Source of the DNA: Alkalinema sp. FACHB-956
Lineage (GTDB): Bacteria; Cyanobacteriota; Cyanobacteriia; Leptolyngbyales; Leptolyngbyaceae
NCBI RefSeq assembly: GCF_014697025.1
Contig: NZ_JACJRC010000019.1
Coordinates: 69,081-101,080, forward strand
Length of the DNA: 32,000 nt
Direction of reading: 5' to 3'
The notes under the pieces are model-generated. The model was not told the origin of the DNA. It worked only from the letters and a program-made list of their open reading frames with translations, and did no database searches. Positions 9,344-28,802 of this stretch are shown here, piece after piece. The position numbers and the translations under genes are program-made. Positions within the stretch are counted from its first letter, which is position 1; each line of letters starts with the position of its first letter.

Positions 9344-9461
9344 GCCATTCTTCTAGGAAGGCAGATAGGAAGCCAGGTAGAAAACCAGGTAGGAAGCCAG
9401 GGTTCGCACAGTAGAGGTTGCCACCCATCTACTTTCCCACCCATCCACTCTCCCACCCCCT

Positions 9462-10115
9462 CTACTTGCTGCTGTAAATGTCCCCCAGCCGATTGAAGGG
9501 GAAAAAGCGCACCCAAGCTCGCCCGATAATGTTCTGCCGGGGCAAAAATCCCCAGGCATGGGAATCGTTGCTGTTATTACGGTTATCCCCCATGACGAAG
9601 TAATAGTTGTCTGGCACTTGGAAACTCTCGCCTTCCTTCAGTCCTTTGGAAAATAAGAAGGAACAAAAATCCTGGCCGCGCGGAACTAAGGGAACTTGAC
9701 TCGGACAGTTATAGGCGGGAGGTTCAGCAATGTAGGGTTCCGCGATCGGCTGACCATCGATCGACACTTTGCCTTGATAAACGCCCACGCGATTGCCCGG
9801 TTGGCCGATGATGCGTTTGATCAGGGCTTGATCTTTACCATAGCCCTGGCGCTGTAAGGGTTCGGGGGCACTAAAGACCACAATATCCCCAGTTTGAGGG
9901 GGATGGAACCAATAGGAAACCTTCTCAACAATCAAGCGATCGTCGGTCAACAAGGTTGGCACCATGGAATCGGAGGGAATGAATCGCGGTTCTGCAATAA
10001 AGGTGCGAACCAATAACGCCACAATCAGCGCGATCACGACAATCTGAATATTTTCCCAAACGGACTTCCAACGGTCAGTCCGGTCTGAATTGGATGAATT
10101 GGGGTTATTCGCCAT
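9462..10115 (-). CDS. lepB: Signal peptidase I
   Basis: An N-terminal TM segment is followed by SDSMVPTL (catalytic Ser box), LIKRIIGQPGN (Lys box) and GDNRNNSNDSH. Confidence 0.93.
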   Translation of the reverse strand: MANNPNSSNSDRTDRWKSVWENIQIVVIALIVALLVRTFIAEPRFIPSDSMVPTLLTDDRLIVEKVSYWFHPPQTGDIVVFSAPEPLQRQGYGKDQALIKRIIGQPGNRVGVYQGKVSIDGQPIAEPYIAEPPAYNCPSQVPLVPRGQDFCSFLFSKGLKEGESFQVPDNYYFVMGDNRNNSNDSHAWGFLPRQNIIGRAWVRFFPFNRLGDIYSSK

Positions 10116-10522
10116 AGTTCAACCTAACAACTACTGTCGGATTTCTGAGTCTGGGGTTTCTGCCGCTTCTAGATCGCCAGACTGAAGCCACTGAAGCCAA
10201 ACAGTCAACTTACCAACAGCCACAATCTATATCAGAAGAATTCAATCATCTGCCATTATCCCGTGCCTTGCCGAATATTCCGCGAAAAAGACCGTCGATC
10301 GAGGGTGAACAAAATTTACGGTTGCGAAGATTTTCTGAGTTTCTCGGCCCATCCCAGAAACTGCGTTGCAAAATGGTACGTAAATCAGGAGTCACAAGAA
10401 TTGGGTGGGTAGTTAGCCCTCACAGAGGATCTCCTGGGAGACTTCCGATCGTCTCTAGTCGTCCTCTCACCATCGTCATTACTGTATCTACTTTTAAGCC
10501 ATAGGAAATTAGGGAAGAAACG

Positions 10523-11146
10523 ATGACTTTTACCGCAGACCAGCTCACAAGACTTCGCGATAATCTAGACGGCTTAGGCTATCCCATGGGGCCTCGCGGT
10601 CTGTTTGGCATTGGCAATGAGCAAAATGCCTTTGATGCGGCGGCCTTAGGGGGCGGCAGCATTACTGCCAATAATTCCATGCGGAGTATCAAGGTTCTGG
10701 ATGCCTATACCCGATCGGCGATCTATCAATTCCAGCGCGATCGGCAACTGACCGCCGATGGTAAGTTCAGTGCGGATCTCTTGACGCAGGTGGATGGCAT
10801 AGTCCGCAACTTACAAAACAACTTGAAACTAGTCCTGAAAAAAAGTGACTTACCGCTAACGGGCTATTACGGGATCCAAACCTTCCAGGGCGTCAAGGAA
10901 TACCAAAAAGCCAAGGGTTTACCCATCACTGGAATTGCCACCCCAGCGATTCAACGGCAACTGAATGACGAAGCCAGAAAGTTGGCTGGGAAACCCACAA
11001 CCGGCGGATCGACCACACCCCCAGCCGTGGCTCCCAATGACGCAGTAACAAAACTGGCAGCGCTGTCCAGCATCAAGCGCCGCTACCAAAACGGGGATAT
11101 TCTCACCGACGATTTTGTTAAAGAAGTGATTCAAGCGATTCCCTAG
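10523..11146 (+). CDS. Peptidoglycan-binding (PG_binding_1-like) domain protein
   Basis: Two repeats follow the pattern ..YQFQRDRQLTADGKF.. and ..VKEYQKAKGLPITGIATPAIQRQL.., characteristic of PG-binding domains. Confidence 0.75.
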   Translation: MTFTADQLTRLRDNLDGLGYPMGPRGLFGIGNEQNAFDAAALGGGSITANNSMRSIKVLDAYTRSAIYQFQRDRQLTADGKFSADLLTQVDGIVRNLQNNLKLVLKKSDLPLTGYYGIQTFQGVKEYQKAKGLPITGIATPAIQRQLNDEARKLAGKPTTGGSTTPPAVAPNDAVTKLAALSSIKRRYQNGDILTDDFVKEVIQAIP

Positions 11147-11188
11147 AACCCAATCAACTTGTGATTGCAATCCATCGCGATCCCTCTC

Positions 11189-11236
11189 AATCCCCCTATC
11201 TCCTTCGGAGAGGCTACGTCAAGGAAAAGGGGGATT
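11189..11236. terminator. Nested hairpin between convergent genes (probable bidirectional terminator)
   Basis: The outer 9-bp stem is AATCCCCCT (11189-11197) with AGGGGGATT (11228-11236). The inner hairpin is TCTCC-TTC-GGAGA. It lies between the stops of 10523-11146 (+) and 11287-12381 (-). Confidence 0.5.
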
Positions 11237-11286
11237 TTGCAAGAATTTACGTAAATTCTCTACTTTTTTCCAGCACAGCGATCGGC

Positions 11287-12381
11287 TTACCAGGGACAGG
11301 TTGACGGATCGGCGCTACATCCCATGCGCTGAATGGTATTCTGCTCAAATTGGTCAATGGCTAGGGTCGGCGTGTCATTGTTCAGAAAACGTCCGGTGAG
11401 GAGTAGGACGGTTAAAGGATCCGCCAGTCCTGTTGCTTTGAGTTTGACGGTGCTTTGGAAGCTGCGAATGCCGTCAGCATCGGGGCTAAATCCTAGTTTC
11501 TTCAGAGAGCGATCGATCTGGGACTGGGTTAGTACAACTTCATTGGGCCGAAAGATGGGGACATACTCCTGTCGCCAGCGCGATTGGAGTTCCTCCTGCG
11601 TCCAACTGTAATAGCGGCCTTGGGCGGGATCGGCAACAACGACATGATCCTGATCCATTGCCATCAGGGCAACGGCATGGGGTAATCTGCGCCACCCTGC
11701 CCCTAGCCAGACGGATAACAAACCGGGGCGATTAATCTTCCAGAGCTGCTCCCAGGTGGCTTGGGTGACTTCCAATCCCGTTAGCCCAAAGCCTTGGGCG
11801 GCTTTGATCACCTGCGGATTGGACGTTCCCATACGACTGGTTCCGGCCAGTTGCGCCACTTTGGATTCCGTGGCTTGGGTCATCCCCCAGCGTTGCAGCA
11901 AGGTGGCCAAGGCAGAGGGAGCACAGCTACTGGCAGAGGTTTGCTTAAAAACCTGATTGGGCCGCAGGTTGTTTTTCAGTTCGCCATAGATCGGTGACAG
12001 GTAGTAGGATTCCACCACGGTAAAACTGATTAAGCCGATTAAGCTCACAGCAACGATCGCGCCCAATTGGACCCGTGCGGTTTTCCAGCTAATGGCGATC
12101 GCAAAGCCACAGGCTCCGATTAACAAAACTCGGATCATCAGCCAAGTAATCCGCATTCCCACCACGCGCCAATCCAACGGGAAAAATTGCATCTGCGGCA
12201 AATTCACTGCCAGAAATAGCAACAACCCATAGATCAGAATAATGATCCAGGTTTGCCATTCCTGTCCCTTGAGCAAGTCGTTAGCCGTTGCCCCACGACG
12301 CAACATCAACTGGCCGAGGCGCGTGCCCCCATAAAAAAATACGGCTCCCAACGCTAGCGTGGCCGGAACAATCCACAGCAT
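11287..12381 (-). CDS. Membrane-anchored peptidase C39-like cysteine protease with a C-terminal PG-binding-like domain
   Basis: The N-terminal ~140 aa are hydrophobic. SASSCAPSALATLLQRWG supplies the C39-like Cys and HAVALMAMDQDHVVVADP the His. The C-terminus, LKKLGFSPDADGIRSFQSTVKLKATGLADP, resembles PG_binding_1. Confidence 0.7.
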   Translation of the reverse strand: MLWIVPATLALGAVFFYGGTRLGQLMLRRGATANDLLKGQEWQTWIIILIYGLLLFLAVNLPQMQFFPLDWRVVGMRITWLMIRVLLIGACGFAIAISWKTARVQLGAIVAVSLIGLISFTVVESYYLSPIYGELKNNLRPNQVFKQTSASSCAPSALATLLQRWGMTQATESKVAQLAGTSRMGTSNPQVIKAAQGFGLTGLEVTQATWEQLWKINRPGLLSVWLGAGWRRLPHAVALMAMDQDHVVVADPAQGRYYSWTQEELQSRWRQEYVPIFRPNEVVLTQSQIDRSLKKLGFSPDADGIRSFQSTVKLKATGLADPLTVLLLTGRFLNNDTPTLAIDQFEQNTIQRMGCSADPSTCPW

Positions 12382-19757: not shown

Positions 19758-19783
19758 GTGGTGGGAGACGGGATGTGGAGCGG

Positions 19784-19864
19784 GAGAAGGTGAATTTGTT
19801 GGTCTTTGATGCAAAACAGGAGGTTGTGGTGCAGTGGATCGAGTCAATGAGTATCGAACCATAA
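19784..19864 (+). pseudogene. xisH: 3' remnant (about 20 codons) of a xisH gene overlapping the xisI start
   Basis: The frame reads ..EKVNLLVFDAKQEVVVQWIESMSIEP*. It aligns without gaps to the C-terminus of the intact XisH in this window (GVKLLIYNPIEEEIVLWKD*). It overlaps the xisI start as xisH-xisI pairs do. The rest of xisH is missing and the DUF218 stop lies at 19757. Confidence 0.4.
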
Positions 19865-20175
19865 TTCAGCGGGTGATGGCTGATTATTACCAGCTTTATT
19901 CCCGATCGAAGAATCCAGATTTAGAGACGTTGTTGTTGTGTGATGGGTCGCAGGATCAGTATTTGTTGATGCGGTTGGGCTGGGAGGGCGATCGGCGGGT
20001 GAATCGGAATGTGATTCATTTGCGGTTGCGGGATGGCAAGGTGTGGGTGGAGGAGGATTGGACGGAGCAGGGGGTGGCGACGGATCTGTTGGCGGCAGGG
20101 GTGGAGCGAGAGGCGATCGTGCTGGGGTTTCAGCCTCCTCATGTGAGAGAGTTTACGGAGTTTGCGGCGGTTTAA
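19834..20175 (+). CDS. xisI: XisI (fdxN-element excision controlling factor I family)
   Basis: 113 aa, GTG start. YRTIIQRVMADY, LLMRLGWEGDRRV, HLRLRDGKVWVEEDWTE and IVLGFQPP match the XisI family and the second XisI copy at 24477-24812. Confidence 0.85.
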   Translation: MDRVNEYRTIIQRVMADYYQLYSRSKNPDLETLLLCDGSQDQYLLMRLGWEGDRRVNRNVIHLRLRDGKVWVEEDWTEQGVATDLLAAGVEREAIVLGFQPPHVREFTEFAAV

Positions 20176-20262
20176 GGTTCGATCATTTTGGTGGGTGGAA
20201 GGTTTTGGGATTCAGGTGTTAAACTCTAGCAGATAATGCTTCTCTGCTGGAGTTTTTAGGCC

Positions 20263-20745
20263 ATGGTGGTCGATCGTTTGGCGGATATTCATGCTGCGTT
20301 GACGGATCTTTATGAGCAGCTTGCGGGTGAGGAACGCGCATGGCGGTTGGCAGAGGAGGCGGAGAAATCTAGGCTTCAGCAGAAGATTCGGTTAACTTGG
20401 CAGAGAATTCGTGAGTACGATCGCGAATATGTTTTAACTTTGAGCAAGCGGGTGAAACGGGCGGATTTGCCGGAGCCGATCGCGGAGGCGGTGATGGCTG
20501 AGTTTGTGGATGAGCTGGAAGTTCTGGCTCCCATGGAGAAGCGGGATGAGACGAAGCAGCTTTTGTTGGAGATTTTAGCGGAGTTGAGGAAGCCGGGGGT
20601 GCCTGCTTCGGCGAAATTAAAGGTGGCGATTCCGATTATCCCGAATGTGGTGAGTTATGAGCTGGAGGGGGATACGGAGAGTGTGGTGCGGCGGCTGTTT
20701 CCGACGTTTGTGAAGGTGTACGAGGCGATCGCGGCAAAAAAGTAG
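20263..20745 (+). CDS. 160-aa coiled-coil protein with a C-terminal hydrophobic segment (SAKLKVAIPIIPNVVSYELEGDTES); candidate adaptor/effector partner or N-terminal module of the downstream STAND NTPase
   Basis: ATG start. About 110 aa are charged and heptad-rich (EERAWRLAEEAEKSRLQQKIRLTWQRIREYDREY..), followed by a short hydrophobic motif. It has the same G3/T3 codon regime as the NB-ARC 5' half. It ends GCA AAA AAG TAG. Confidence 0.7.
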   Translation: MVVDRLADIHAALTDLYEQLAGEERAWRLAEEAEKSRLQQKIRLTWQRIREYDREYVLTLSKRVKRADLPEPIAEAVMAEFVDELEVLAPMEKRDETKQLLLEILAELRKPGVPASAKLKVAIPIIPNVVSYELEGDTESVVRRLFPTFVKVYEAIAAKK

Positions 20746-20779
20746 CGGCTCTTGGTGCAGGGAGTTCTGAGCCAGGAGC
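20722..20779 (+). promoter_or_regulatory. Candidate -1 ribosomal frameshift cassette: SD-like GAGG, slippery A_AAA_AAG, spacer, stem-loop
   Basis: GAGG lies at 20722-20725. The heptamer A AAA AAG lies at 20736-20742 in the zero-frame X_XXY_YYZ register. TAG lies at 20743-20745. An 8-bp stem pairs 20748-20755 with 20772-20779 (one G-U pair), starting 5 nt after the heptamer. The -1 frame is open from 20661 to 24239. Confidence 0.35.
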
Positions 20780-20828
20780 GCCATCAAAGTCAAGTCTGAA
20801 GCCGAGTGCGCTGAGGCTACCAGTACAA

Positions 20829-23800
20829 TTGCCGGAGAATTTTGTGAAGCGGCCTGAGGCGCTGGCGGCAGTGAAGGAACTGCTGCTACGGGAGAGTGAG
20901 CGGACGTTGGTGGTGAGCGCGATCGCGGGGTTGGGTGGCCTTGGAAAGTCGGTGTTGGCGACGGCGATCGTGTGGGATGACGAGGTGCAGGCGCGGTTTG
21001 CGGATGGGATTTTGTGGGTGACGTTGGGGCAGCAGCCGGATTTGTTATGGGAGCTTGGGGAGTGGATTCGGGCGTTGGATAAGTCGCGGGAGAGTTGGAG
21101 TGCGACGACGCTGGAGTCGGCGAGGAGGTATTTGCATAGTCTGCTAGTGGATAAGCGGGTATTGCTGGTGGTGGATGATGTATGGAATGCGGCTCATGCC
21201 AAGTGGTTTTGGGTGGGTGGGCCTGAGTGTCGGGTGTTGGTGACGACGCGGGGGGTTCCAATTATTGGGGCGGAGCGATATGACTTAGATGTGATGTCGC
21301 CAGAGGATTCACTGACATTGATTCGGAAGACGTTAGCGGATAAATGGCAGGTGGAGATGGAGCAGCCTGCGTTAGAGTTTGCAGAGATGCTGGGACACTT
21401 ACCTTTGGCGTTACGGTTGATGGCGCTTCAGATTAGTCGTGGGAAAAGGTGGGAGTCGCTAAAGCAGGCATTTTTGAAGGAACGGTTGCGGTGTTTGTAT
21501 GAGGCTGGGGTACGGTTGTCAGATTTGTCTGAACAGGAACAGCGCCAATGCAGTTTAGCGGCTTGTTTTGAGGTGAGTTTGGCAAGGTTACGGGAGGACG
21601 ATCCGGCGCTATATGAGCAATTTGTGTGGTTGGGGGTGTTACCGGAGGATGTGACGATTCAAGAACAGATGGCAGTGACGTTGTGGGGTGTGGAAGATTG
21701 GGAGGCAGAGGAGTCGCTGTTGAGTTTGTATGAGCAGGCGTTTCTGATGAGAGCGGGGGAGTCAGTTGAGGGATATGCACTGTATCGGATGCATGATTTG
21801 ATGCATGCTACGGCGCAGGGGTTGATTGAGTCAGGATGTTTAGCGGGTGTAGAGAGTTTGGCTGCGGCGCATCGATCGTTTGTGGGACGGTATGGCAAAT
21901 TGAATGCGGAAGCTTATTTGTTTGGGTTGCCGAAGGATGGTTATATTCATCGGCATCTGACGTGGCATTTGGTGATGGCGGGGCGGGAGGATACGGTTCA
22001 TCGATTGCTGCAACGGAGTAATCGATTGGGGCGAAATGCTTGGTTTGAGGCTTGTGAGGAGATTGGGGAGCCTGCGATTTTTGTGCAGGATGTGCAGCGG
22101 GGTTGGGAGTTGGCGGAGGCGTTGTATGAGCGGGATAATGCAAAAGCAATTATTTTACAGATAAGATATGTACTAATTTTTACAACCCTAAACAGTCTAC
22201 TAAATCACATTCCGGATGAATTAATTGCCGCCCTAGTAAAGCATGGCTATTGGCAAGTGGAAAAAGGATTAGCCTACGCAGAGAATATTCCGGAAAACTG
22301 GCATCGTGGTAATACCATTATTGAATTAGTTCCTTATTTATCTCAGACTCTTGCCATCAAGTCGATCAATATTGCTCAGGAAATTGATGATGATTCCATT
22401 CGAGAAAATGTTCTTCAGGCTATAGCCCGAAAGTTCCCCGAATTGCTTCCTAATATTCAGCTTAATAAAAGTGATTTTCCTGACAAAGAAGTAAACATTT
22501 TAGAACATCTTCAAATAGATACATCTGATGGTAGTCAATTAGCAGCTTTAGAGAAAATCCAAATAATAGTAGATGAAGAGGATAAGTGCAAAGCAATATG
22601 TGAAATAGCGCCTAAGTTAAAGGAAGAATTTCTTGAAAAAGCAGTTAGTATTGCATATTCAATCGAGCATTTGGAATTACACATCAAAGCTCTATGCCGT
22701 ATAGGAAAACATATCCCAAAAATTTATCCCGATCTATATAGTAGAATATTATCACTAGAGCCAGAGGATCCATCTCTTGGCAGTGGAGAGGATTTTGCAT
22801 TGATTCTTTGCCACGCAATTTCAATTTTTCCTGAACTAGCTCAAAAGGCTTTAGAGTGGTCATCCAACTATCTAACTGATGAATTTATGCCATGGGCTGT
22901 ACGCAAAATAGCACCTCATATCGATGAGGATGATTTATTGTATGAAGCCTTAGACTATATATTTTCTGAACGGGATGAATATTATTATTCAGATGGTCTT
23001 GCAGCACTCTCCCCATACCTTTCTCCTGAATATATTACTATTGCCTTTAATAGAGCACAATTGATTCATGATCCTGGCAGTCGTATAGCAGCACTTAATG
23101 CTTTAGTATCCTATTTACCTTTTGAGAAGCTTGAAAGCTTTCTTTCCACTTCAAAACAGATCAGTGATCAATATGAATATTGTTATGCAATCGCCTATTT
23201 CTCTCGAAAATATCCTGTGCTACACAATCACATGATTGAGATATTAAAGACTATAGAAAATGAATTAGATTGTATAAATACACTATTTTTACTTGCAAAA
23301 TATCTCCCTATTCAATACTTGTCGCAGATTCGTGGATTCATTGAAAAAGTCCATGAAGAATACGAATACTTTTCTCTTTTAATCCTGCTAGCAGCAAAAG
23401 ATTCTTCACTATTGCAAGACATTATAAGAGAGTCAAAATATCTCGACAATGATGATTATGCAGGCATTATGGTTCAACTAGCAGAGTTAATGCCTGAAAA
23501 AAACAATGAAGCACTTAAGGCTGTTAAAAAAATAAAAAATGGTTATAGGAAGAAACTTCTTTTAAAAAGATTGCTCCCCTGCTTGAGTAGAAAACAGCTT
23601 TTATCTTTATATAACCGAACGAAAAAAGGTGTTGTTGATGAAGATGATATAGAGATGCTCATTGAGATTGTCAACTTTTTACCAGAAAAGGCAGAAGATT
23701 TATTGGAAAAAATACGAATGAGTTTCGGGCAGAAAACTGAATGGAATTGGTTGGTTGAGCTAGCTAAATTTCTTCCAGATTTGTGTTTAGAAACCTTAGA

Positions 23801-24239
23801 AAAATGTGCCGAACCTTCAGAAATTCTTTCGCAAAGCGATACTTTGATAATTTATATGACTGCCTTTCCTGATTCTCTACCTTATGTAATGGAAAAATTT
23901 CCACAAGTTCGATGGGATAAGCTCAATATGTTTAATTTAATAGCTTTAGCGAAATCTCTTAAAGCTGAATTCCTGCCAGATGCTATAACCGCCATCAAGA
24001 AACTGAGTAATCCACAAGAGAGAGCAGATGCTTACAGCAACTATCTCTCTCGCCTATCTTGGCAGAGTATGTCTTATGAAGAGTGGAAAGATATATTAAA
24101 AATATTGTCATCGAGCGAACGTGCATCCTTCCTAAAAGCCTTGCCAGATCTTACACCTGGTATTAAGACTTTTGGTGGAGAACACGTAGTAGAGGATGTG
24201 ATATTGACCTTGCGTGAAGTTTATAGCCAATGGCCTTAA
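20829..24239 (+). CDS. NB-ARC (AP-ATPase/STAND) NTPase with a C-terminal helical-repeat (HEAT/ARM-like) sensor region
   Basis: The NB-ARC signature is complete: Walker A GLGGLGKS (aa 34-41), VLLVVDDVW (aa 111-119), RVLVTTR (aa 135-141) and GHLPLAL (aa 189-195). From about aa 440 on there are repeated units of the type ..L..LA..LP....L..AL..I.. The protein ends GGEHVVEDVILTLREVYSQWP. There is no ATG start: TTG at 20829, or GTG at 20844 with GGAG 7 nt upstream. No effector domain precedes the NOD. Confidence 0.9.
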   Translation: MPENFVKRPEALAAVKELLLRESERTLVVSAIAGLGGLGKSVLATAIVWDDEVQARFADGILWVTLGQQPDLLWELGEWIRALDKSRESWSATTLESARRYLHSLLVDKRVLLVVDDVWNAAHAKWFWVGGPECRVLVTTRGVPIIGAERYDLDVMSPEDSLTLIRKTLADKWQVEMEQPALEFAEMLGHLPLALRLMALQISRGKRWESLKQAFLKERLRCLYEAGVRLSDLSEQEQRQCSLAACFEVSLARLREDDPALYEQFVWLGVLPEDVTIQEQMAVTLWGVEDWEAEESLLSLYEQAFLMRAGESVEGYALYRMHDLMHATAQGLIESGCLAGVESLAAAHRSFVGRYGKLNAEAYLFGLPKDGYIHRHLTWHLVMAGREDTVHRLLQRSNRLGRNAWFEACEEIGEPAIFVQDVQRGWELAEALYERDNAKAIILQIRYVLIFTTLNSLLNHIPDELIAALVKHGYWQVEKGLAYAENIPENWHRGNTIIELVPYLSQTLAIKSINIAQEIDDDSIRENVLQAIARKFPELLPNIQLNKSDFPDKEVNILEHLQIDTSDGSQLAALEKIQIIVDEEDKCKAICEIAPKLKEEFLEKAVSIAYSIEHLELHIKALCRIGKHIPKIYPDLYSRILSLEPEDPSLGSGEDFALILCHAISIFPELAQKALEWSSNYLTDEFMPWAVRKIAPHIDEDDLLYEALDYIFSERDEYYYSDGLAALSPYLSPEYITIAFNRAQLIHDPGSRIAALNALVSYLPFEKLESFLSTSKQISDQYEYCYAIAYFSRKYPVLHNHMIEILKTIENELDCINTLFLLAKYLPIQYLSQIRGFIEKVHEEYEYFSLLILLAAKDSSLLQDIIRESKYLDNDDYAGIMVQLAELMPEKNNEALKAVKKIKNGYRKKLLLKRLLPCLSRKQLLSLYNRTKKGVVDEDDIEMLIEIVNFLPEKAEDLLEKIRMSFGQKTEWNWLVELAKFLPDLCLETLEKCAEPSEILSQSDTLIIYMTAFPDSLPYVMEKFPQVRWDKLNMFNLIALAKSLKAEFLPDAITAIKKLSNPQERADAYSNYLSRLSWQSMSYEEWKDILKILSSSERASFLKALPDLTPGIKTFGGEHVVEDVILTLREVYSQWP

Positions 24240-24299
24240 AGAAGAATTCTTTTTCTTAATAAAATTTTGTTCGAATGCTTCTGCCTCATGCTCTACAGA

Positions 24300-24434
24300 C
24301 TAGCCCACTGCAAACGGTCAGACCTGATGGGGGATTTGACGACACTTTATCCAGCGATTTTGCACCTAGGCGGTGAAGGCGCAATGCAGGGGATTGTGGA
24401 AGAGATGAAGCGGATTTGTGGGCAATGGCCGTAG
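24300..24434 (+). pseudogene. Orphan STAND-gene 3' tail, copy 1 (last 44 codons plus stop)
   Basis: It reads LAHCKRSDLMGDLTTLYPAILHLGGEGAMQGIVEEMKRICGQWP*. This aligns without gaps to the C-terminus of the intact STAND protein (..RASFLKALPDLTPGIKTFGGEHVVEDVILTLREVYSQWP*). Confidence 0.6.
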
Positions 24435-24476
24435 GGGGAAGGCGGAAGTAGGAACGCTGAAGGCGGAAAAAGCATT

Positions 24477-24812
24477 CTAGGCGACACTGTAGCCTGTATC
24501 TGCCCTGGCATACTCCGGCTGTAATCCCAACACAATATCCTCCTTCCTCACTCCCCGCTCCACCAACGCCTGCGCAATCAATCGATCGGTTTCATTCCGC
24601 TGAATCCAAACCTTCCCATTCTTAATATCCAAATGCATCAACACACTATAAAACCGTCGATTCCCTTGCCATCCTAAACTCACTAGCTGATAGTGATCAC
24701 GATCGCGATCGTAAATAGTCTGAATTTCTGAATCAGCCTGTACCACTTCACCCCCAGCATATTCAGCCAAAAGCGCTGTAATAATATCTCGATATTGCTC
24801 TAGTCCTTCCAT
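24477..24812 (-). CDS. xisI: XisI family protein
   Basis: 111 aa with YRDIITALLAEY, LVSLGWQGNRRF, HLDIKNGKVWIQRNETD and IVLGLQPE. Its start overlaps the xisH stop by 13 nt. Confidence 0.9.
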   Translation of the reverse strand: MEGLEQYRDIITALLAEYAGGEVVQADSEIQTIYDRDRDHYQLVSLGWQGNRRFYSVLMHLDIKNGKVWIQRNETDRLIAQALVERGVRKEDIVLGLQPEYARADTGYSVA

Positions 24813-25219
24813 AGGACAATTTCCTCCTCAATTGGGTTGTAAATGAGCAGCTTCACCCCATAAGTTTGCACTGAGGCTTTCGCTAATGGACGTTGGAAAA
24901 ACATCTCATAGGCAATCAGTGGCACTGCTAAATATAGTTTGCGATCGGGTTCCACACTTTGCAACACCAACCGATAATTCAAAAACTGTCCTAAGGCTGC
25001 ATGGTAATCAAACAAAGCAGACTCACTCAAAAAGCTCTTGATTTCAACAGCGATTTTTTCATTGTCACGTTCCGCTGCAAGTAGTCTTTCTGCTCCCAAG
25101 TCAATTCTCACTTCATCTTCATCCTCGAACTTCAACCTCAGAGGATCGGCAGTAATATTCCATGCCTCCTTCAACAAAGCTGTCTTCACTGCGTCATGGT
25201 ATCGGTCTTTTGCAGACAT
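24800..25219 (-). CDS. xisH: XisH family protein (endonuclease-like fold)
   Basis: 139 aa. MSAKDRYHDAVKTALLKEAWNITADPL.., IDLGAERLLAAERDNEKIAVEIKSF and LYLAVP match the XisH pattern. Confidence 0.9.
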   Translation of the reverse strand: MSAKDRYHDAVKTALLKEAWNITADPLRLKFEDEDEVRIDLGAERLLAAERDNEKIAVEIKSFLSESALFDYHAALGQFLNYRLVLQSVEPDRKLYLAVPLIAYEMFFQRPLAKASVQTYGVKLLIYNPIEEEIVLWKD

Positions 25220-25294
25220 TTTATCGATCGGGATTGACTGGGCTTTTGTTTTCTATCATACCTCCCCCGCCTCCCCCTCGCTTCCCTTCCGCGC

Positions 25295-25456
25295 ACCGAC
25301 TGGCAAGCCTACCTGCACCTGCTAGCCCACCGCACAAGGGCAGCCCTGCTGGGTGATTTAGTGACGCTTTATCCCGCAATTTTACACCTAGGCGGTGAAG
25401 GCGCAATGAGGGGAATTGTGGAAGAGATGAAGCGGATTTGTGGGCAATGGCCGTAG
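25295..25456 (+). pseudogene. Orphan STAND-gene 3' tail, copy 2 (last ~51 codons plus stop)
   Basis: It reads TDWQAYLHLLAHRTRAALLGDLVTLYPAILHLGGEGAMRGIVEEMKRICGQWP*. Its last 51 residues (from W) align without gaps to the last 51 residues of the intact STAND protein (W..L..L....RA..L..L..L.P.I...GGE......QWP). Positions 25385-25490 are nearly identical to 24363-24468. Confidence 0.6.
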
Positions 25457-25552
25457 GGGGAAGGCGGAAGTAGGAACGCTGAAGGCGGAATAGGGGGATG
25501 GGAAGTCCGGGGGAGGCGATTCTTGGGGTAGAGGTTAGGCACGGGAGGATGC

Positions 25553-25573
25553 GCTAGACTGGAGACATCTAGC
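25553..25573 (+). promoter_or_regulatory. Inverted repeat overlapping a -10-like TAGACT upstream of the antitoxin gene (possible TA operator)
   Basis: GCTAGA (25553-25558), 9 nt, TCTAGC (25568-25573). It lies 22 nt upstream of the ATG at 25595. Confidence 0.3.
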
Positions 25574-25594
25574 CGATCGATTCGGGTAAGCCCC

Positions 25595-25861
25595 ATGACT
25601 CTGAAAGAAACCTTACTGCAAGAACTCGAAACCGCTGATGAAGAATTGATCACAGCAGCGATCGAATGGGTACGATCGCGCAAACATCAAACCGCACTGC
25701 CACCTGCCAGTGGTGTCCCAATTCAGCGTGGGGCAAAACTGGGTGACTTACTTGAATTTGCGGGCACTTGGGCGGGTGAAGATTTAGCCGATTGTTTAGA
25801 AAACGTCTATGCCACCCGCAGTAAAACCGATTTTAGCGCTGCTCCCCAACCCTTCGAGTAA
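25595..25861 (+). CDS. Antitoxin (DUF2281-like N-terminus) paired with VapC
   Basis: 88 aa. MTLKETLLQELETADEELITAAIEWVRSRK resembles the DUF2281 antitoxin N-terminus. Its stop is 2 nt before the vapC ATG. Confidence 0.65.
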   Translation: MTLKETLLQELETADEELITAAIEWVRSRKHQTALPPASGVPIQRGAKLGDLLEFAGTWAGEDLADCLENVYATRSKTDFSAAPQPFE

Positions 25862-25863
25862 CG

Positions 25864-26310
25864 ATGTATCTGCTTGACACCAACCATTGCAGCCAGATTA
25901 TTGCAGGCGATCGGCAAGTGATTCAGGAAATTCTCAGCCGTCGTAATGAAGGCGTTGCAATTAGTGTTATTGTCCAAGGTGAGCTGCGTTTCATGGCCGA
26001 ACATTCCGCTCAAAGAACTGAAAATCTAAATCAGATTCAAGGCTTTCTGGAACGATTTGATCTGTATCCGATTAGTGCGGATATCAGTAATACCTATGCC
26101 TCACTCAAAGCTTCACTGCTCAGGACGTTTGGGCCAAAAGATCAAGCTCAGCGCCGTAAAACACGAATTCAAACAATTGGTTTTGATGATAACGATCTGT
26201 GGATTGCGGCTACAGCGATTCAGCATCAGCTTATTTTGGTTTCGGCGGACAGTGATTTCGATCGAATGCAGCAAGTCTCAACACTACGGGTTGAATCCTG
26301 GATAATGTAA
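25864..26310 (+). CDS. vapC: PIN-domain toxin VapC
   Basis: 148 aa with MYLLDTNHC (first acidic residue), VQGELRFMAE, NDLWIAATAI and LVSADSDF, the four PIN motifs. Confidence 0.9.
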   Translation: MYLLDTNHCSQIIAGDRQVIQEILSRRNEGVAISVIVQGELRFMAEHSAQRTENLNQIQGFLERFDLYPISADISNTYASLKASLLRTFGPKDQAQRRKTRIQTIGFDDNDLWIAATAIQHQLILVSADSDFDRMQQVSTLRVESWIM

Positions 26311-26323
26311 GTTCTTAAGGCTC

Positions 26324-26428
26324 CACCTGCTAGCCCAGCGCACACAGGCAGCCCTGATGGGGGATTTGGCAACACTTTACGCAGCGATTTTACACCTAGA
26401 TGGAGAAGTTAGAATAGAGGCAGGCTAA
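26324..26428 (+). pseudogene. Orphan STAND-gene 3' tail, copy 3 (truncated; diverges after ..LHLDGE)
   Basis: It reads HLLAQRTQAALMGDLATLYAAILHLDGEVRIEAG*. Positions 26324-26408 are homologous to copies 1 and 2, then replaced by GTTAGAATAGAG... Confidence 0.5.
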
Positions 26429-26449
26429 CGTGATTTATAAGAGACTGAG

Positions 26450-26698
26450 ATGAATATTACCTTGAGACCCGAACAACAAGCATTTCTTCAGACACAGCTC
26501 GAATCCGGTGCATACATCAACCCAGACGATCTCATTAACGATGCGATCGCCCTTCTCGCAGCCAAGCACCAAAAACTACGCGAACTCCAACAAATGATTG
26601 AGATTGGGACTGAACAAATTCAACGCGGAGAAGTCACTGACGGGGAACAAGTCTTTGATCGGTTACAAACTCAGTATGGCTTTTCCACGGAATCATGA
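26450..26698 (+). CDS. ParD-like (CopG/RHH-type) antitoxin
   Basis: 82 aa. MNITLRPEQQAFLQTQLESGAYINPDDLINDAIALL.. is the ParD4/TIGR02606-like pattern. It overlaps the toxin gene by 4 nt (ATGA). Confidence 0.75.
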   Translation: MNITLRPEQQAFLQTQLESGAYINPDDLINDAIALLAAKHQKLRELQQMIEIGTEQIQRGEVTDGEQVFDRLQTQYGFSTES

Positions 26699-26982
26699 AT
26701 ACCTATTCATTCTCCGCAGAAGCCATTCGGGACTTAGAGTCTATTTGCCAGTATATTTCTCAAAACAACGACTGGGCCGCCAGCAAAACGTTTGATGCAA
26801 TCCGAAAAAAGGCAAAGCTCCTCGCTCAATTTCCTAGTATGGGTAAGGCATACAATCAACTCGCTCCCAATCTCAGAGGTGCCCCTGTAGAAGACTACCT
26901 GATTTTTTATTATCCCAGGCCAGACGGTATTGATATTGTGAGAATCATAAGTGGCTATCGAGATCTAGAACAACTTTTCTAG
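26695..26982 (+). CDS. ParE/RelE-superfamily toxin
   Basis: 95 aa. A.RDLESICQYIS..N...A..F...I......L..FP.MG and YLIFYYPRPDGIDIVRIISGYRDLE fit the ParE pattern. Confidence 0.8.
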   Translation: MNTYSFSAEAIRDLESICQYISQNNDWAASKTFDAIRKKAKLLAQFPSMGKAYNQLAPNLRGAPVEDYLIFYYPRPDGIDIVRIISGYRDLEQLF

Positions 26983-27125
26983 AAGAAATTGAATCTAGAA
27001 AAAACGAAGTACCAGGCAGCAATCATAGTCCTGAAGCAAAACCGTCTTCAGAAAATCAACAAAATAGATGACGCATTTTAGCAGAGGTTAGAATAGAGCA
27101 GTCGATCGCTTGAGGGAGAATCATT

Positions 27126-27383
27126 ATGACGATTCAGGAACTAGAGCAAGAACTGCTTATGCTCGATCGTAACGAACGGATTCGACTCATTCAGGTCATT
27201 GCCCAAAGCTTAGCTCTCCCATCTCAAGACGTTGACGAAGCCTCCACCCAAAAAATGACCATCGTAGACGCGATCGACGAAGTTCGTCGAAATATATCGC
27301 CGGAAGAACTCGACCCCAACGCCGAGGATATTTGGGCAACCATCCGAGATCAAACCCCAGTAAACCAAGAACCTCGGTGGTAA
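27126..27383 (+). CDS. Antitoxin-like 'addiction module component' protein
   Basis: 85 aa. MTIQELEQELLMLDRNERIRLIQVIAQSL is the typical TIGR02574-like N-terminal helix. A vapC remnant follows 3 nt downstream. Confidence 0.65.
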   Translation: MTIQELEQELLMLDRNERIRLIQVIAQSLALPSQDVDEASTQKMTIVDAIDEVRRNISPEELDPNAEDIWATIRDQTPVNQEPRW

Positions 27384-27386
27384 ATC

Positions 27387-27464
27387 ATGCACTATCTTCT
27401 CTATACCAATATTCTGGCGGAACCCAGCAAACTCCAACCTAATCAAAACGTACTCGATCGATAA
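27387..27464 (+). pseudogene. vapC: Truncated vapC (PIN) remnant, 25 codons
   Basis: MHYLLYTNILAEPSKLQPNQNVLDR* matches the PIN N-terminal strand and helix (LLDTNvl.E..k..Pn..V). The first catalytic Asp is replaced by Tyr, and the ORF ends where the opposite-strand gene pair begins. Confidence 0.55.
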
Positions 27465-27484
27465 CGTTGAGTACTACCTGGATA

Positions 27485-27838
27485 TTACATTGCATAAACC
27501 TGTAATCGATCGCACCACTGTTGCGCTTTCGTAGCCAAAGAAATCCGATCTTCAGCACTTGTCCAACGCTTTTCCCAATCTAATTTCCAATCACTCAGTT
27601 CCCGCTGAAGATTAACTAATTCTGTCGCAATACTAATCTCCGTTTCAAGGTCGATCGTTGGTACTGTCCATTCAATAAAAAACTGACTTTCTCTGACCAA
27701 ATGCTTTGCAACCTGCCCATCATCAATACTATTCGCCAAAGTCTGAATACGAGTTAAATTCAGCGTAATACTTTCTAATTGCGCAGCGCGATCGGATTGG
27801 AGATAGCGTTGTTTTAAGGTGTCCCAATTTATTGCCAT
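27485..27838 (-). CDS. Hypothetical helical protein (117 aa), translationally coupled to the upstream DUF5674-like gene
   Basis: Clean ORF. Its start overlaps the stop of ORF 27829-28182 by 10 nt. I recognise no family. Confidence 0.6.
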   Translation of the reverse strand: MAINWDTLKQRYLQSDRAAQLESITLNLTRIQTLANSIDDGQVAKHLVRESQFFIEWTVPTIDLETEISIATELVNLQRELSDWKLDWEKRWTSAEDRISLATKAQQWCDRLQVYAM

Positions 27839-28182
27839 TGCACACCACCCAAAAAACGATAAATAATATCATTCACTTTAGATCGAATGATTGGATCTTG
27901 AATTTCCATCGATCGATTATTGGCACTGGGTCGAATGTTGATAATTGATTCATGCCCAACGGTCTGGTTAAACGGATACCAATCAGCACCCCAAAGGTCA
28001 GTCTGACGGCTACCATTTTTTAGCAAGACTTGTTCACAGTCTGCATGTAGCTCTCCACCTCCCGCCAAAATATTGCGATCGATGTCCGCTACCAACTTAA
28101 CATAAACCCCCAAGACTTCGAGCATCGCCCGCATTTGTTCAGGGGTGGCACGACTATGCAGGATGAGAATCATACCGTTCAC
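27829..28182 (-). CDS. DUF5674-like protein (117 aa)
   Basis: ATPEQMRAMLEVLGVYVKLVADIDRNILAGGGELHADCEQVLLKNGSRQTDLWGADWYP...INIRPSANNRSMEIQDP matches my recollection of the DUF5674 family. This needs HMM confirmation. Confidence 0.6.
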   Translation of the reverse strand: MNGMILILHSRATPEQMRAMLEVLGVYVKLVADIDRNILAGGGELHADCEQVLLKNGSRQTDLWGADWYPFNQTVGHESIINIRPSANNRSMEIQDPIIRSKVNDIIYRFLGGVQWQ

Positions 28183-28504
28183 GACTGATCAAAATTTTTA
28201 TCCTAACCCAGCCATGACCCTTCCGCATCCTGCTCACGCACCTCACCTCGCCGTTGCCAGATGCCACATTACTAAACATCACAACCTTGCAAACAATCGC
28301 AAAATAGTTGACAGCGCCTCAGTTTACCCCTAGGCTTAGTTTTCATAGCTGAATGCAACCGTGTGCATCAAGTCCCGATTGAATCAGCTACGACCCCAAA
28401 AATTAAGGCGCTGCCCCAGTTGCTTGCAACAACGTAAGGCAGCTAAACCCCGAAGCTGATAACGGCAGCTAGGCGGTCTGACACGGATTGTAACATTCGA
28501 TCGG

Positions 28505-28546
28505 GCCACCCTACTTGTCCTGCGCAAAAGGGTGGCTTTAATTTTT
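28505..28546 (+). terminator. Intrinsic terminator inside the 5' leader of CDS 28584-28802
   Basis: GCCACCCT (28505-28512) and AGGGTGGC (28529-28536) form the stem around a 16-nt loop, followed by TTTAATTTTT. No plus-strand gene lies immediately upstream. Confidence 0.55.
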
Positions 28547-28583
28547 GGGATTTCCTCCCATCACCCCACTTAGGAGAAATCCC

Positions 28584-28802
28584 ATGTTCATTGGCATGAG
28601 CGACCACGATCGCCCGATCGACGACGCCCGCAGACCGCTCCAGTTCTACCTTCTCGGCACCCGCGAAGAAATCCAAGCCACCATCAATCAACTGCAAGTC
28701 CTGCACTTTTGCGAACGCATTCGCTGGAGTCCCCCCATCCCCGTCCTCGGCTCCGATTGGAAATACATCAGCATGATGGAACGAGATCGGATCTTGGAGT
28801 AA
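28584..28802 (+). CDS. Small hypothetical protein (72 aa)
   Basis: The ATG at 28584 is preceded by AGGAG with about 6 nt of spacing. The protein begins MFIGMSDHDRPIDDARRPLQFYLLGTREEIQATINQLQVLHFCERIRWSPPIPV.. It resembles small conserved cyanobacterial proteins I cannot name. Confidence 0.55.
   Translation: MFIGMSDHDRPIDDARRPLQFYLLGTREEIQATINQLQVLHFCERIRWSPPIPVLGSDWKYISMMERDRILE

What the first reader, a model, noticed from the sequence alone, without database searches (positions are those of the whole stretch)
22135..24299. Abrupt codon-regime and GC break inside the STAND gene, exactly at the NOD/sensor boundary
Seen:
- Up to about 22140 the gene is G-rich and C-poor, with G/T-ending codons (GTG, TTG, CGG, GCG, GAT, TAT).
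- From ..GAG CGG GAT AAT GCA AAA GCA ATT ATT TTA CAG ATA AGA TAT.. onward it becomes AT-rich with A/T-ending codons. This continues through the stop (24239) to about 24275.
- The G-rich composition then resumes in the orphan tail at 24300.
- The AT-rich 2.1 kb contains no CGATCG at all, although that hexamer occurs about every 100 bp elsewhere.
- The break falls at about aa 440 (..ALYERDNAKAI | ILQIRYVLIFTTLNSL..), where the repeat (sensor) region starts.
Inference: the sensor module was replaced by foreign DNA. The replacement displaced the previous 3' end, whose last ~45 codons survive immediately downstream. This is the same logic as C-terminal displacement in Rhs/CdiA loci.
Basis: partly seen in the sequence, partly recalled or inferred. 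Interest (0 to 1): 0.7.

Follow-up and report, generated by a model that had tools for sequence, protein, structure and literature searches.

The report
Swapped sensor in bacterial NLR-like gene
A cyanobacterial immune-receptor-like (NB-ARC/STAND) gene had its C-terminal sensor replaced by a 2.2-kb piece of compositionally foreign DNA, and the stump of the old gene end survives just downstream, so one step in how such receptors change their sensing module is preserved here.

Summary
GC3 and G3 change point falls at nt 22133-22135. GC drops from 0.53 to 0.35 and recovers at about 24280. CGATCG is absent from the tract.

The window comes from Alkalinema sp. FACHB-956. In the orthologous locus of Alkalinema sp. 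CACIAM 70d, DNA homology is 94/96 identical up to 22135 and then collapses. It resumes at 24300, inside the conserved C-terminal "cap".

So 22136-24299 is an in-register replacement of the sensor. It brought its own cap, stop codon and 60 nt of 3' flank, and it stranded the last ~45 codons of the resident gene. No donor was found; the best relative is ≤30% identical.

- There are three orphan caps, not one, each next to a two-gene toxin-antitoxin-like cassette.
- The same cap/cassette arrays occur at four other sets of cyanobacterial contigs.
- The NOD and the N-terminal module are also mosaic.
- A Phormidesmis homologue has its own AT-rich sensor patch.

Seen in passing: a conserved A_AAA_AAG site with a downstream hairpin probably fuses an upstream 160-aa ORF to the NTPase by -1 frameshifting.

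Verdict: a new variant of C-terminal displacement, here in an NLR-like receptor.

The parts
19775..19864 (+). 3' remnant (about 30 codons) of an upstream xisH, marking the left edge of the G-rich/C-poor block
   Evidence: Homology to L001 starts at window 19775 = L001 9519, inside L001 xisH 9174-9608.
19834..20175 (+). xisI (113 aa), in the G3-rich/C3-poor codon regime
   Evidence: Pfam XisI E=6.7e-39. 98% nt identity to CACIAM L001. C3 7%, G3 58%.
20263..20745 (+). ORF160, an all-helical 160-aa module of unknown function. It occupies the position of the EAD4 domain in the CACIAM orthologue.
   Evidence: No similarity to P0003 EAD4. Homologues 65-70% identical sit upstream of STAND NTPases in L013, L015 and L016. 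No Pfam, NCBIfam, PADLOC or PDB hit.
20722..20779 (+). Candidate programmed -1 frameshift signal: GAGG 20722-20725, slippery A_AAA_AAG 20736-20742, 0-frame stop 20743-20745, hairpin arms 20748-20756 and 20771-20779
   Evidence: Conserved in 4 of 4 ORF160 loci. The -1 frame is open and encodes the conserved family linker. Four hairpin pairs show compensatory changes.
20742..22135 (+). Resident part of the STAND gene: linker plus NB-ARC NOD (first canonical start is TTG 20829), in the G3-rich/C3-poor regime. It is itself mosaic relative to CACIAM.
   Evidence: Pfam NB-ARC. C3 3%, G3 59%. Sliding nt identity to L001 is 90-96% at 20830-21240, 50-65% at 21240-21740 and 85-90% at 21740-22135.
22136..24299 (+). 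Replacement tract: AT-rich sensor (helical repeats plus its own cap, to 24236), stop 24237-24239, and 60 nt of donor 3' flank
   Evidence: Change points at 22133-22135 and 24280, delta* 178, no CGATCG. Homology to the orthologue ends at 22135 and resumes at 24300. The open 700-codon frame joins the NOD in register with the family consensus.
24300..24468 (+). Orphan tail 1: the last ~45 codons of the displaced resident gene (stop 24432-24434) plus 34 nt of 3'UTR
   Evidence: About 92% identity to the functional cap and UTR of CACIAM L003, and contiguous with the same xisI. Of 11 nt differences in 44 codons, 7 change the amino acid.
24477..25219 (-). xisI (24477-24812) and xisH (24800-25219) two-gene cassette
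   Evidence: Pfam XisI 5.1e-39 and XisH 4.9e-54.
25261..25494 (+). Orphan tail 2: 64 cap codons (stop 25454-25456) plus 3'UTR
   Evidence: 91.5% identity to L003 357-591. Translation. The last ~80 nt are identical to tail 1.
25595..26310 (+). VapBC-like cassette: 88-aa ORF plus PIN-domain toxin (25864-26310)
   Evidence: Pfam PIN E=1.4e-12.
26321..26408 (+). Orphan tail 3: 29 cap codons, truncated on both sides
   Evidence: 83% identity to L003 409-496. Translation.
26450..26982 (+). ParD/ParE cassette, bracketed by the 12-nt direct repeat GTTAGAATAGAG (26408-26419 and 27087-27098)
   Evidence: Pfam ParD 7.9e-5 and ParE 1.1e-16. Two copies of the repeat, against 0 of 100 shuffles reaching two.
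27080..28790 (+). Downstream flank shared with CACIAM. It sets the baseline orthologous divergence at about 91%.
   Evidence: blastn of window 27080-28790 against L003 1024-2708 gives 91.0%.

Best explanation
What it is. The gene is an Apaf-1-like NB-ARC STAND NTPase. It has a NOD followed by a C-terminal helical-repeat sensor, and the sensor ends in a conserved ~60-residue cap (..W..L..L....R..L......L.P.I..LGG...........W(P/R)*).

The event. In the Alkalinema sp. FACHB-956 lineage, a 2,164-bp segment of a divergent, AT-rich member of the same family replaced the resident sensor. The left junction (22135/22136) lies in the variable 10-residue linker just before the conserved I.LQ.RYALI..LNSL motif. 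It is exactly in register, so the chimera is one open frame. The right junction (about 24290-24300) is out of register. There, 60 nt of donor 3' flank are joined to the middle of the resident cap. As a result the resident's last ~45 codons and its 3'UTR survive as an untranslated stump.

Inferred mechanism. This looks like one-sided, homology-anchored recombination, possibly after DNA uptake or transfer from a plasmid copy. The anchor would be in the conserved NOD/linker, with an illegitimate join at the 3' end. The expected functional result is a receptor that keeps its NTPase switch and N-terminal module but has a new ligand-binding surface.

Wider pattern. This event is the latest of a series.
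- Two older cap stumps, each followed by a toxin-antitoxin-like pair, lie further downstream.
- The N-terminal module and a 500-bp patch inside the NOD have also been exchanged relative to the sister genome.
- Cap stumps interleaved with TA cassettes recur at other cyanobacterial loci.
I therefore infer that the conserved cap-coding DNA and the conserved NOD/linker act as recombination handles, through which sensors and 3'-flanking cassettes are exchanged and pile up.

Shown versus inferred. Shown: the composition break, the homology breaks, the orphan caps, the mosaic structure and the recurrence elsewhere. Inferred: the recombination mechanism, the source of the tract, and an immune or conflict role for the protein.
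For: - Change points at 22133-22135 and 24280, far beyond permutation values. The foreign dinucleotide signature is confined to the tract.
- Source genome identified.
- Orthologue comparison: the alignment is 94/96 identical and then collapses at 22135. It resumes at 24300 and continues through the UTR and xisI.
- The CACIAM gene runs into regular repeats and ends with the cap that is orphaned here.
- The tract carries its own cap, homologous at protein level only (33% identity).
- Spacing between ..LAE and I.LQ is 10 residues, as in the family consensus.
- The linker just after the junction is closer to Stenomitos P0002 than to the Alkalinema orthologue (counted by eye).
- Tail 1 shows mostly non-synonymous decay, 7 amino-acid changes in 11 nt differences.
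- Three tails at about 1-kb spacing, separated by xisIH, PIN and ParDE cassettes.
- The NOD is mosaic. The N-terminal module is non-homologous, while the adjacent xisI is 98% identical.
- Cap/TA arrays occur in L004/5, L007-9, L010 and L011/12.
- An independent AT-rich sensor patch with different breakpoints occurs in Phormidesmis.
- Family members sit on cyanobacterial plasmids.
Against: - No donor sequence was found. The best relatives of the tract are 24-30% identical and there is no DNA match in plasmids. The source and the true crossover points are therefore unknown.
- The visible break at 22135 could already have existed in the donor.
- L001 and L003 are separate contigs. That they adjoin is inferred from matching repeats and from synteny with the window.
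- Only one assembly of FACHB-956 exists and I had no reads.
- CACIAM lacks tails 2 and 3, so their age and order of origin are uncertain.
- Some cap arrays (L004/5, L007-9) have no STAND gene nearby, which simple serial displacement does not predict.
- PADLOC finds no known defence family, so an immune function is only inferred from the family.
Confidence: 0.8

Rival explanations
1. Cap-flanked cassette array. The cap-coding segment is primarily a recombination site at which small circular units (a partial cap plus a TA pair, or a sensor) integrate and excise. Integration could be Campbell-type homologous or site-specific. On this view the sensor swap is just one more insertion, not a displacement driven by selection on the receptor.
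For: - Cap copies separate TA cassettes at five loci. Two of these have no STAND gene within reach (L004/5; L007-9 on a TrwC relaxase contig).
- Many copies start at one of two recurrent positions.
- Tails 1 and 2 are identical over their last ~80 nt but only about 81% identical before that, as expected from a crossover or conversion inside the cap.
- A similar vapC 3' end precedes a cap copy in two unrelated contigs.
Against: - There is no integrase, transposase or other recombinase in the 32-kb window.
- Tail boundaries are not fixed. Left ends fall at L003 positions 357, 409 and 418; right ends at 496 and 591. Several copies are truncated or interrupted.
- The cap is clearly protein-coding in origin and is conserved across the whole family.
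- This rival overlaps with the best explanation rather than excluding it.
Confidence: 0.3
2. Reverse polarity. The AT-rich sensor is the older state at this locus, and the CACIAM lineage acquired the G-rich regular-repeat sensor.
For: Only two genomes are compared. A Phormidesmis homologue also has an AT-rich sensor.
Against: - The cap stump downstream of the AT-rich sensor is orthologous (about 92%) to CACIAM's functional cap. It is contiguous with the same UTR and xisI. It can only be a stump if something was inserted in front of it.
- The tract has a foreign dinucleotide signature and lacks the host's CGATCG.
Confidence: 0.05
3. In-place divergence. The resident sensor became AT-rich through targeted AT-biased hypermutation or relaxed selection, without any DNA replacement.
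For: Sensors of immune receptors evolve fast. A second family member shows an AT-rich sensor between a G-rich NOD and a GC-rich cap.
Against: - The tract has its own complete cap and stop codon, while the original cap still lies downstream.
- The transition is abrupt, within a few bases.
- Third-position identity to the orthologue falls to 0.2.
- The frame is intact for 700 codons in 35% GC DNA.
Confidence: 0.02
4. Assembly artefact. The contig is a chimera that joins host DNA to a contaminant or a paralogue.
For: There is a single short-read assembly. The CACIAM assembly breaks in the repeats of the same gene.
Against: - Host-type sequence lies on both sides of the tract within a 110.7-kb contig.
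- The left join is in frame and in register at a homologous position.
- The tract is not repetitive at DNA level.
- A comparable AT-rich patch occurs in two independent Phormidesmis assemblies.
Confidence: 0.03

Closest known systems
C-terminal displacement and orphan modules in Rhs, CdiA and MafB polymorphic-toxin loci (from my own knowledge: Jackson et al. 2009; Poole et al. 2011; Koskiniemi et al. 2014)
   Same: An incoming 3' gene segment recombines at a conserved region of a large modular gene. The previous 3' end is pushed downstream and persists as a promoterless stump. Repeated events build an array of stumps interleaved with small two-gene or one-gene cassettes.
   Different: - The protein is a cytoplasmic STAND NTPase receptor, not a secreted toxin.
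- There is no PxxxxDPxGL or VENN demarcation motif.
- The stumps keep only the conserved terminal cap, not the variable part.
- The neighbouring genes are generic TA-like pairs (XisHI, VapBC, ParDE), not cognate immunity genes.
Modular evolution of bacterial antiviral STAND / NLR-like proteins (Avs, bNACHT)
   Same: Tripartite N-module / NOD / C-terminal sensor architecture. The same sensor domain is found across many STAND clades (PMC13581612, seen), which implies sensor exchange.
   Different: That work infers exchange from phylogeny. Here the junctions, the displaced end and the unswapped orthologue are all visible. This protein matches no PADLOC defence model, and no phage trigger is known.
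DGR-driven hypermutation of sensors in conflict systems of multicellular bacteria (PMC10907252; PMC7159879)
   Same: The same organisms and the same kind of protein: cyanobacterial STAND-type conflict systems whose ligand-binding end is diversified.
   Different: There is no reverse transcriptase and no TR/VR pair in the window. Variation here comes from wholesale module replacement, not from targeted adenine mutagenesis.
Chromosomal integron cassette arrays (for example the Vibrio superintegron, rich in TA cassettes; from my own knowledge)
   Same: About 1-kb units, many of them TA pairs, separated by a 90-230-nt repeat in one orientation.
   Different: There is no IntI integrase or attI. The repeat derives from protein-coding sequence and has variable ends. 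No attC-like conserved core was identified.
dnaX and IS3-family programmed -1 frameshifting (for the feature seen in passing; from my own knowledge)
   Same: An A_AAA_AAG heptamer in phase, a Shine-Dalgarno-like GAGG 10 nt upstream, and a stem-loop 5 nt downstream. The fusion product continues in the -1 frame.
   Different: The setting is a STAND NTPase operon. The 0-frame stop follows the heptamer directly. Nothing has been tested experimentally.

Membership tests
NB-ARC (AP-ATPase) STAND NTPases | NB-ARC domain with P-loop and Walker B | tested here: met
   Pfam PF00931 E=1.6e-23, 83.7 bits against a cut-off of 23.5. GLGGLGKS and LLVVDDVW are visible in the translation.
NB-ARC (AP-ATPase) STAND NTPases | Apaf-1-type helical domain after the NOD | tested here: inconclusive
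   PF17908 APAF1_C scores 19.7 bits, below the cut-off of 22.8. Many homologues carry it.
Cyanobacterial NB-ARC / helical-repeat / cap subfamily | Conserved I.LQ.RYALI..LNSL linker, ~38-residue helical repeats, and a C-terminal cap ending (Q/W)W(P/R) | tested here: met
   1719 relatives of the sensor half at E<1e-3. Family consensus. Cap alignment.
Known anti-phage defence systems (Avs and others in PADLOC) | Match to a curated defence-protein model | tested here: not met
   No PADLOC hit for the STAND protein, ORF160, XisH or XisI.
Rhs/CdiA-type C-terminal displacement | New 3' module joined at a conserved region, with the old 3' end retained downstream | tested here: met
   Junctions at 22135 and 24300. 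Orphan tail 24300-24468 is orthologous to CACIAM's functional end.
Rhs/CdiA-type C-terminal displacement | Demarcation motif (PxxxxDPxGL or VENN), variable toxin CT and cognate immunity gene in each orphan | tested here: not met
   No such motif or YD/Rhs or filamentous-haemagglutinin domain. The orphans contain only the conserved cap. Neighbouring genes are XisHI, PIN and ParDE pairs.
Integron | IntI tyrosine recombinase, attI, and attC sites with fixed cores | tested here: not met
   No recombinase among the window ORFs scanned. Repeat ends vary. attC folding was not specifically modelled.
Diversity-generating retroelement | Reverse transcriptase plus a template/variable repeat pair | tested here: not met
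   No RT domain. No TR/VR-like repeat involving the sensor.
Type II toxin-antitoxin modules | Adjacent small antitoxin and toxin genes with family domains | tested here: met
   PIN 1.4e-12, ParE 1.1e-16, ParD 7.9e-5. The XisH/XisI pair is only TA-like by arrangement.
dnaX-like programmed -1 ribosomal frameshift | X_XXY_YYZ heptamer in phase, downstream structure at 5-9 nt, upstream SD-like element, and a conserved -1 frame product | tested here: met
   A_AAA_AAG in 4 of 4 loci. Nine-pair stem 5 nt downstream, with 4 compensatory pairs. GAGG 10-13 nt upstream. Conserved linker in the -1 frame with no start codon.
dnaX-like programmed -1 ribosomal frameshift | Demonstrated frameshift product | not testable with these tools
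   Needs a reporter assay, western blot or mass spectrometry.

The most novel reading that the evidence does not exclude
In this clade of cyanobacterial NLR-like genes, the conserved cap-coding 3' end (together with the conserved NOD/linker) works as a portable homology handle. Through it, whole sensor modules are swapped between alleles, paralogues and plasmid copies, and toxin-antitoxin cassettes are captured into integron-like arrays without any dedicated integrase. That would amount to a recombination-based way of re-tooling an innate immune receptor and stocking the island behind it.
Probability: 0.35. Interest if true: 0.8.

Novelty: new variant of a known kind. Interest (0 to 1): 0.68.

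Why it matters
Bacterial NLR-like receptors are thought to gain new specificities by exchanging sensor domains, but this has mostly been inferred from trees. At this locus all the pieces of one exchange are visible at base-pair resolution:
- the in-register join at the NOD/sensor linker,
- the incoming module with its own end,
- the stranded old end,
- a sister genome that still has the original.

The join position is a natural place to test engineered sensor swaps. The recurrence of cap stumps between toxin-antitoxin cassettes in several cyanobacteria points to a general, so far undescribed way in which these islands grow. The frameshift site seen in passing would add a translational control layer to STAND receptors.

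Tried and rejected
Donor search for the AT-rich tract:
- The word-indexed protein search gave only self and a 25% hit.
- The exhaustive HMMER search gave nothing above ~30%.
- Plasmid tblastn gave ≤29%, and plasmid blastn gave no match.
- Names of the top relatives are all cyanobacterial and uninformative.

Other searches that led nowhere:
- The genome-contig scan with the tail DNA pattern found only the CACIAM contig, not the source genome. Paralogues within FACHB-956 therefore could not be examined.
- PADLOC, tRNA and Rfam scans were empty.
- The consensus scan flagged no intrinsic terminator after the new stop codon.
- Two annotated plasmid copies of the family (Tolypothrix, L. boryana) show no cap/TA array, so the array is not universal.
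- Literature searches found nothing on orphan caps, sensor displacement or frameshifting in STAND genes.

ORF160:
- It has no Pfam, NCBIfam or PDB-sequence hit.
- The single-sequence AlphaFold model is weak (pLDDT 64) and Foldseek gave no hit at E<1.
- My first idea, that ORF160 is a frameshifted EAD4 domain, was rejected because there is no similarity.

Considered and rejected: integron, DGR, an IS or transposon insertion, and in-place hypermutation (see the rivals and membership tests).

Tool caveat: the search for homologous proteins appears to list only hits up to about 1.75 times the query length.


Full report
**1. The observation**

The ORF 20829-24239 (+) encodes 1136 aa, with an NB-ARC domain at residues 12-218 (Pfam E=1.6e-23).

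Composition changes sharply inside the ORF.
- Third codon positions are A13/C3/G59/T25 % up to 22139 and A36/C13/G14/T37 % afterwards.
- GC in 300-nt windows falls from about 0.52 to 0.33-0.39 and recovers near 24300.
- A likelihood change-point search puts the GC3 and G3 break after codon 435, at nt 22133. The LLRs are 68 and 128, against 9.5 as the largest of 500 permutations.
- A two-break fit on raw GC gives 22135 and 24280.

Other measures agree.
- It is absent from 21874-24582. The tract would hold 11.9 copies at the window density (P=7e-6), or 4.7 after allowing for its base composition (P=0.009).
- The tract's symmetrised dinucleotide signature lies far from the rest of the window (delta* x1000 = 178). 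Ordinary segments give 40-50 and the G-rich block gives 56.

Two details need correcting.
- GC recovers in the downstream 'tail', but the C-poor codon regime does not (C3 25%).
- The G-rich/C-poor regime begins at about 19775. It also covers an upstream xisI and a 160-aa ORF.

**2. Source and orthologue**

The protein is 100% identical to an NB-ARC protein of Alkalinema sp. FACHB-956. The best relative of the NOD half is P0003 of Alkalinema sp. CACIAM 70d, at 67% aa identity.

That gene lies at the end of contig MUGG01000194 (L001), preceded by xisH-xisI, and it is cut off inside its sensor repeats. A scan of one-genome-per-species contigs with the tail DNA pattern found a single place, the start of CACIAM contig MUGG01000153 (L003). 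L003 has these features:
- It begins in the same SIQDEYRRA-type repeats.
- It ends in ..LYPAILHLGGEGTMRGIVEEMKRICRQWP*.
- It continues with the same G-rich 3'UTR and the same minus-strand xisI as the window.
- It then runs into sequence 91% identical to window 27080-28790.

I therefore treat L001+L003 as the orthologous locus with an unswapped sensor. Their adjacency is inferred, not shown.

**3. The junctions**

Left junction. Window and L001 are 94/96 identical up to ..GAGCGGGA (22135) and about 45% identical from the next base. blastn ends its alignment at exactly 22135. Third-position identity falls to 0.2.

The join is in register. It keeps the 10-residue spacer between ..GWELAE and the family-conserved I.LQ.RYALI..LNSL motif.

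Right junction. Homology to L003 resumes at about 24300 (CTAGCCCAC..) at about 92%. This lies inside the resident cap, some 45 codons before its stop.

Between the two junctions the tract contains an open 700-codon sensor, a cap of its own (..FGGEHVVEDVILTLREVYSQWP*), a stop codon at 24237-24239, and 60 nt of AT-rich 3' flank. Its cap is 33% identical to the resident cap at protein level and unalignable as DNA.

Hence 22136-24299 replaced the resident sensor and stranded the resident 3' end. In-place mutation is excluded, because both caps are present.

Polarity is set by the stump. It is orthologous to CACIAM's functional end and contiguous with the same neighbours. It also shows mostly non-synonymous decay, 7 amino-acid changes in 11 nt differences. 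The numbers are small.

**4. What the incoming module is**

The sensor half has 1719 relatives at E<1e-3 in a 50%-clustered library, so it belongs to a large cyanobacterial family. The family architecture is NB-ARC, linker, ~38-residue helical repeats, then cap. No member exceeds about 30% identity to this sensor.

Named top hits are Leptolyngbya, Coleofasciculus and Calothrix. Family members occur on cyanobacterial plasmids, but none is close (≤29%), and there is no DNA-level match.

The donor is therefore unknown. 'Foreign' rests on composition, signature and the lack of the host's CGATCG.

The one-sided pattern (in-register left join, out-of-register right join) is what homology-facilitated illegitimate recombination produces (my own knowledge: de Vries and Wackernagel 2002). 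This is an inference. The visible break could also have been inherited from a donor that shared the NOD.

**5. The swap is one event among several**

Against CACIAM, nt identity varies strongly across the locus:
- 98% over xisI;
- no similarity over 20178-20796, where the window has ORF160 and CACIAM has an EAD4 domain;
- 90-96% over 20830-21240;
- 50-65% over 21240-21740;
- 85-90% over 21740-22135.
The flanking baseline is 91%.

The orphan tail is present three times: 24300-24468, 25261-25494 and 26321-26408. The copies are 80-92% identical. They are separated by xisI/xisH, an 88-aa ORF plus PIN toxin, and ParD/ParE.

Tails 1 and 2 are identical over their last ~80 nt, including the UTR, but only about 81% identical before that. 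This suggests conversion or a crossover inside the cap.

CACIAM lacks 24828-27079. It retains xisI without xisH, which looks like a deletion on its side.

No recombinase, transposase or reverse transcriptase is encoded anywhere in the window.

**6. Generality**

A profile of caps retrieved short annotated ORFs that consist only of the cap. Their contexts show the same architecture.
- L004/L005 have three cap copies interleaved with PIN-type pairs, and no STAND gene within 10 kb upstream.
- L010 has three copies interleaved with a DUF4258 pair and ParDE, downstream of an AT-rich EAL-like gene (domain judged by eye).
- L007-9, on a TrwC relaxase contig, have two copies.
- Many copies start at one of two recurrent positions.

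In Phormidesmis sp. 146-35 (L011/L012) the homologous gene has three composition zones:
- a G3-rich NOD up to about 9890;
- an AT-rich sensor from about 9890 to 11690;
- a C3-rich cap.
It is followed by PIN and PemK cassettes with two further cap remnants.

So AT-rich sensor patches, with different breakpoints, and cap/TA arrays both recur in this clade. Two plasmid copies in other genera show no array.

**7. Interpretation and comparison**

This is C-terminal displacement in the Rhs/CdiA sense, but not a member of those families. There is no demarcation motif, no toxin CT and no immunity gene, and the stumps hold only the conserved cap.

It differs from DGR-based sensor diversification described for similar proteins (PMC10907252, PMC7159879) because it is wholesale replacement.

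It resembles integron arrays in layout only.

It fits the modular picture of bacterial STAND receptors, in which one sensor domain is found across clades (PMC13581612), and supplies a base-pair-level example.

Function as an immune or conflict receptor is inferred from the family only. PADLOC has no match.

**8. Seen in passing**

ORF160 ends GCA AAA AAG TAG. Homologues (65-70% identical) in L013, L015 and L016 end NNA AAA AAG TAR as well.

Evidence for a frameshift site, in all four loci:
- The -1 frame is open from the heptamer into a STAND NTPase. This is NB-ARC in three loci and nSTAND5 in L016.
- The -1 frame encodes the family's conserved linker (..LKPGAP.PRVRLPENFV).
- There is no start codon in that frame before the site. 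The first lies 29, 7, 1 and 13 codons after it.
- A 9-pair stem sits 5 nt downstream, with four compensatory pairs.
- GAGG sits 10-13 nt upstream.
- The A-ending codons of the heptamer go against the ORF's codon bias.

This is the anatomy of a dnaX-like programmed -1 frameshift. It would make both a free 160-aa module and a full-length fusion.

Unexplained: the extreme sense-strand G>>C bias of the xisHI / N-module / NOD block.
- It travels with this clade in at least four host backgrounds, while neighbouring host genes have C3 of 19-46%.
- It is absent from the more distant Stenomitos homologue.

Noticed in passing
window 20722-20779 (also L013 about 7900-7970, L015 about 945-1015, L016 about 1090-1165): Candidate programmed -1 ribosomal frameshift that would fuse the 160-aa upstream ORF to the STAND NTPase. 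In phase A_AAA_AAG is followed directly by the 0-frame stop. GAGG lies 10-13 nt upstream, and a 9-pair hairpin lies 5 nt downstream with 4 compensatory pairs. The -1 frame encodes the conserved family linker with no start codon. All this is conserved in 4 of 4 loci, including one where the downstream NTPase is nSTAND5 rather than NB-ARC.
   Followed up: yes
window 19775-22135; L001 9174-12081; L011 8001-9890; L013 7441-9602: Extreme sense-strand codon bias (C3 3-13%, G3 48-69%, low A3) in the xisHI / N-module / NOD block. It is shared by close homologues in several genera whose neighbouring genes are normal (C3 19-46%). The symmetrised dinucleotide signature is host-like, and an intergenic spacer inside the block is also G/T-rich. 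This looks like a strand-specific mutational pressure that travels with the gene. No mechanism was found.
   Followed up: partly
L004 10028-12360; L007 10055-11470; L010 1753-3645; L011 11757-14651: Copies of the STAND C-terminal cap separate toxin-antitoxin cassettes (PIN, DUF4258, ParDE, PemK) in arrays in other cyanobacterial contigs. Some of these have no STAND gene nearby, and one is plasmid-like. Many copies begin at one of two recurrent positions.
   Followed up: partly
window 20178-20796 and 21240-21740: Relative to the CACIAM orthologue, the N-terminal module is non-homologous (ORF160 versus a fused EAD4 domain). A 500-bp patch inside the NOD is only 50-65% identical, while its flanks are 85-96% identical. 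The upstream xisI is 98% identical against a 91% baseline, and xisH is reduced to its last ~30 codons.
   Followed up: partly
window 26408-26419 and 27087-27098: A 12-nt direct repeat, GTTAGAATAGAG, brackets the ParD/ParE cassette. The first copy sits exactly where orphan tail 3 breaks off. None of 100 shuffles gave two copies.
   Followed up: partly
L011/L012 9897-9899: The Phormidesmis homologue has an in-frame TGA at the position of the family-conserved Trp, just after the NOD/sensor boundary. The TGA sits at the start of its AT-rich patch, and the same gene calls are present in two assemblies. It is either a pseudogene or a recoding event.
   Followed up: no
window 24240-24434: Orphan tail 1 is in the same frame as the STAND ORF, and no stop lies between TAA 24237-24239 and the tail's own stop. 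Read-through would append 64 residues, including a second cap. This is probably coincidence.
   Followed up: no
window 24374-24468 versus 25396-25490: Tails 1 and 2 are identical over their last ~80 nt (end of the cap plus the 34-nt purine-rich 3'UTR) but differ at 14 positions in the preceding 75 nt. This suggests gene conversion or a crossover point inside the cap.
   Followed up: partly
window 27126-27464 and L003 1070-1400: An 85-aa antitoxin-like ORF is followed by what looks like a VapC/PIN gene truncated after about 25 codons (MHYLLYTNILAEPSK..). The truncation is shared with CACIAM. The remnant was identified by eye only.
   Followed up: no
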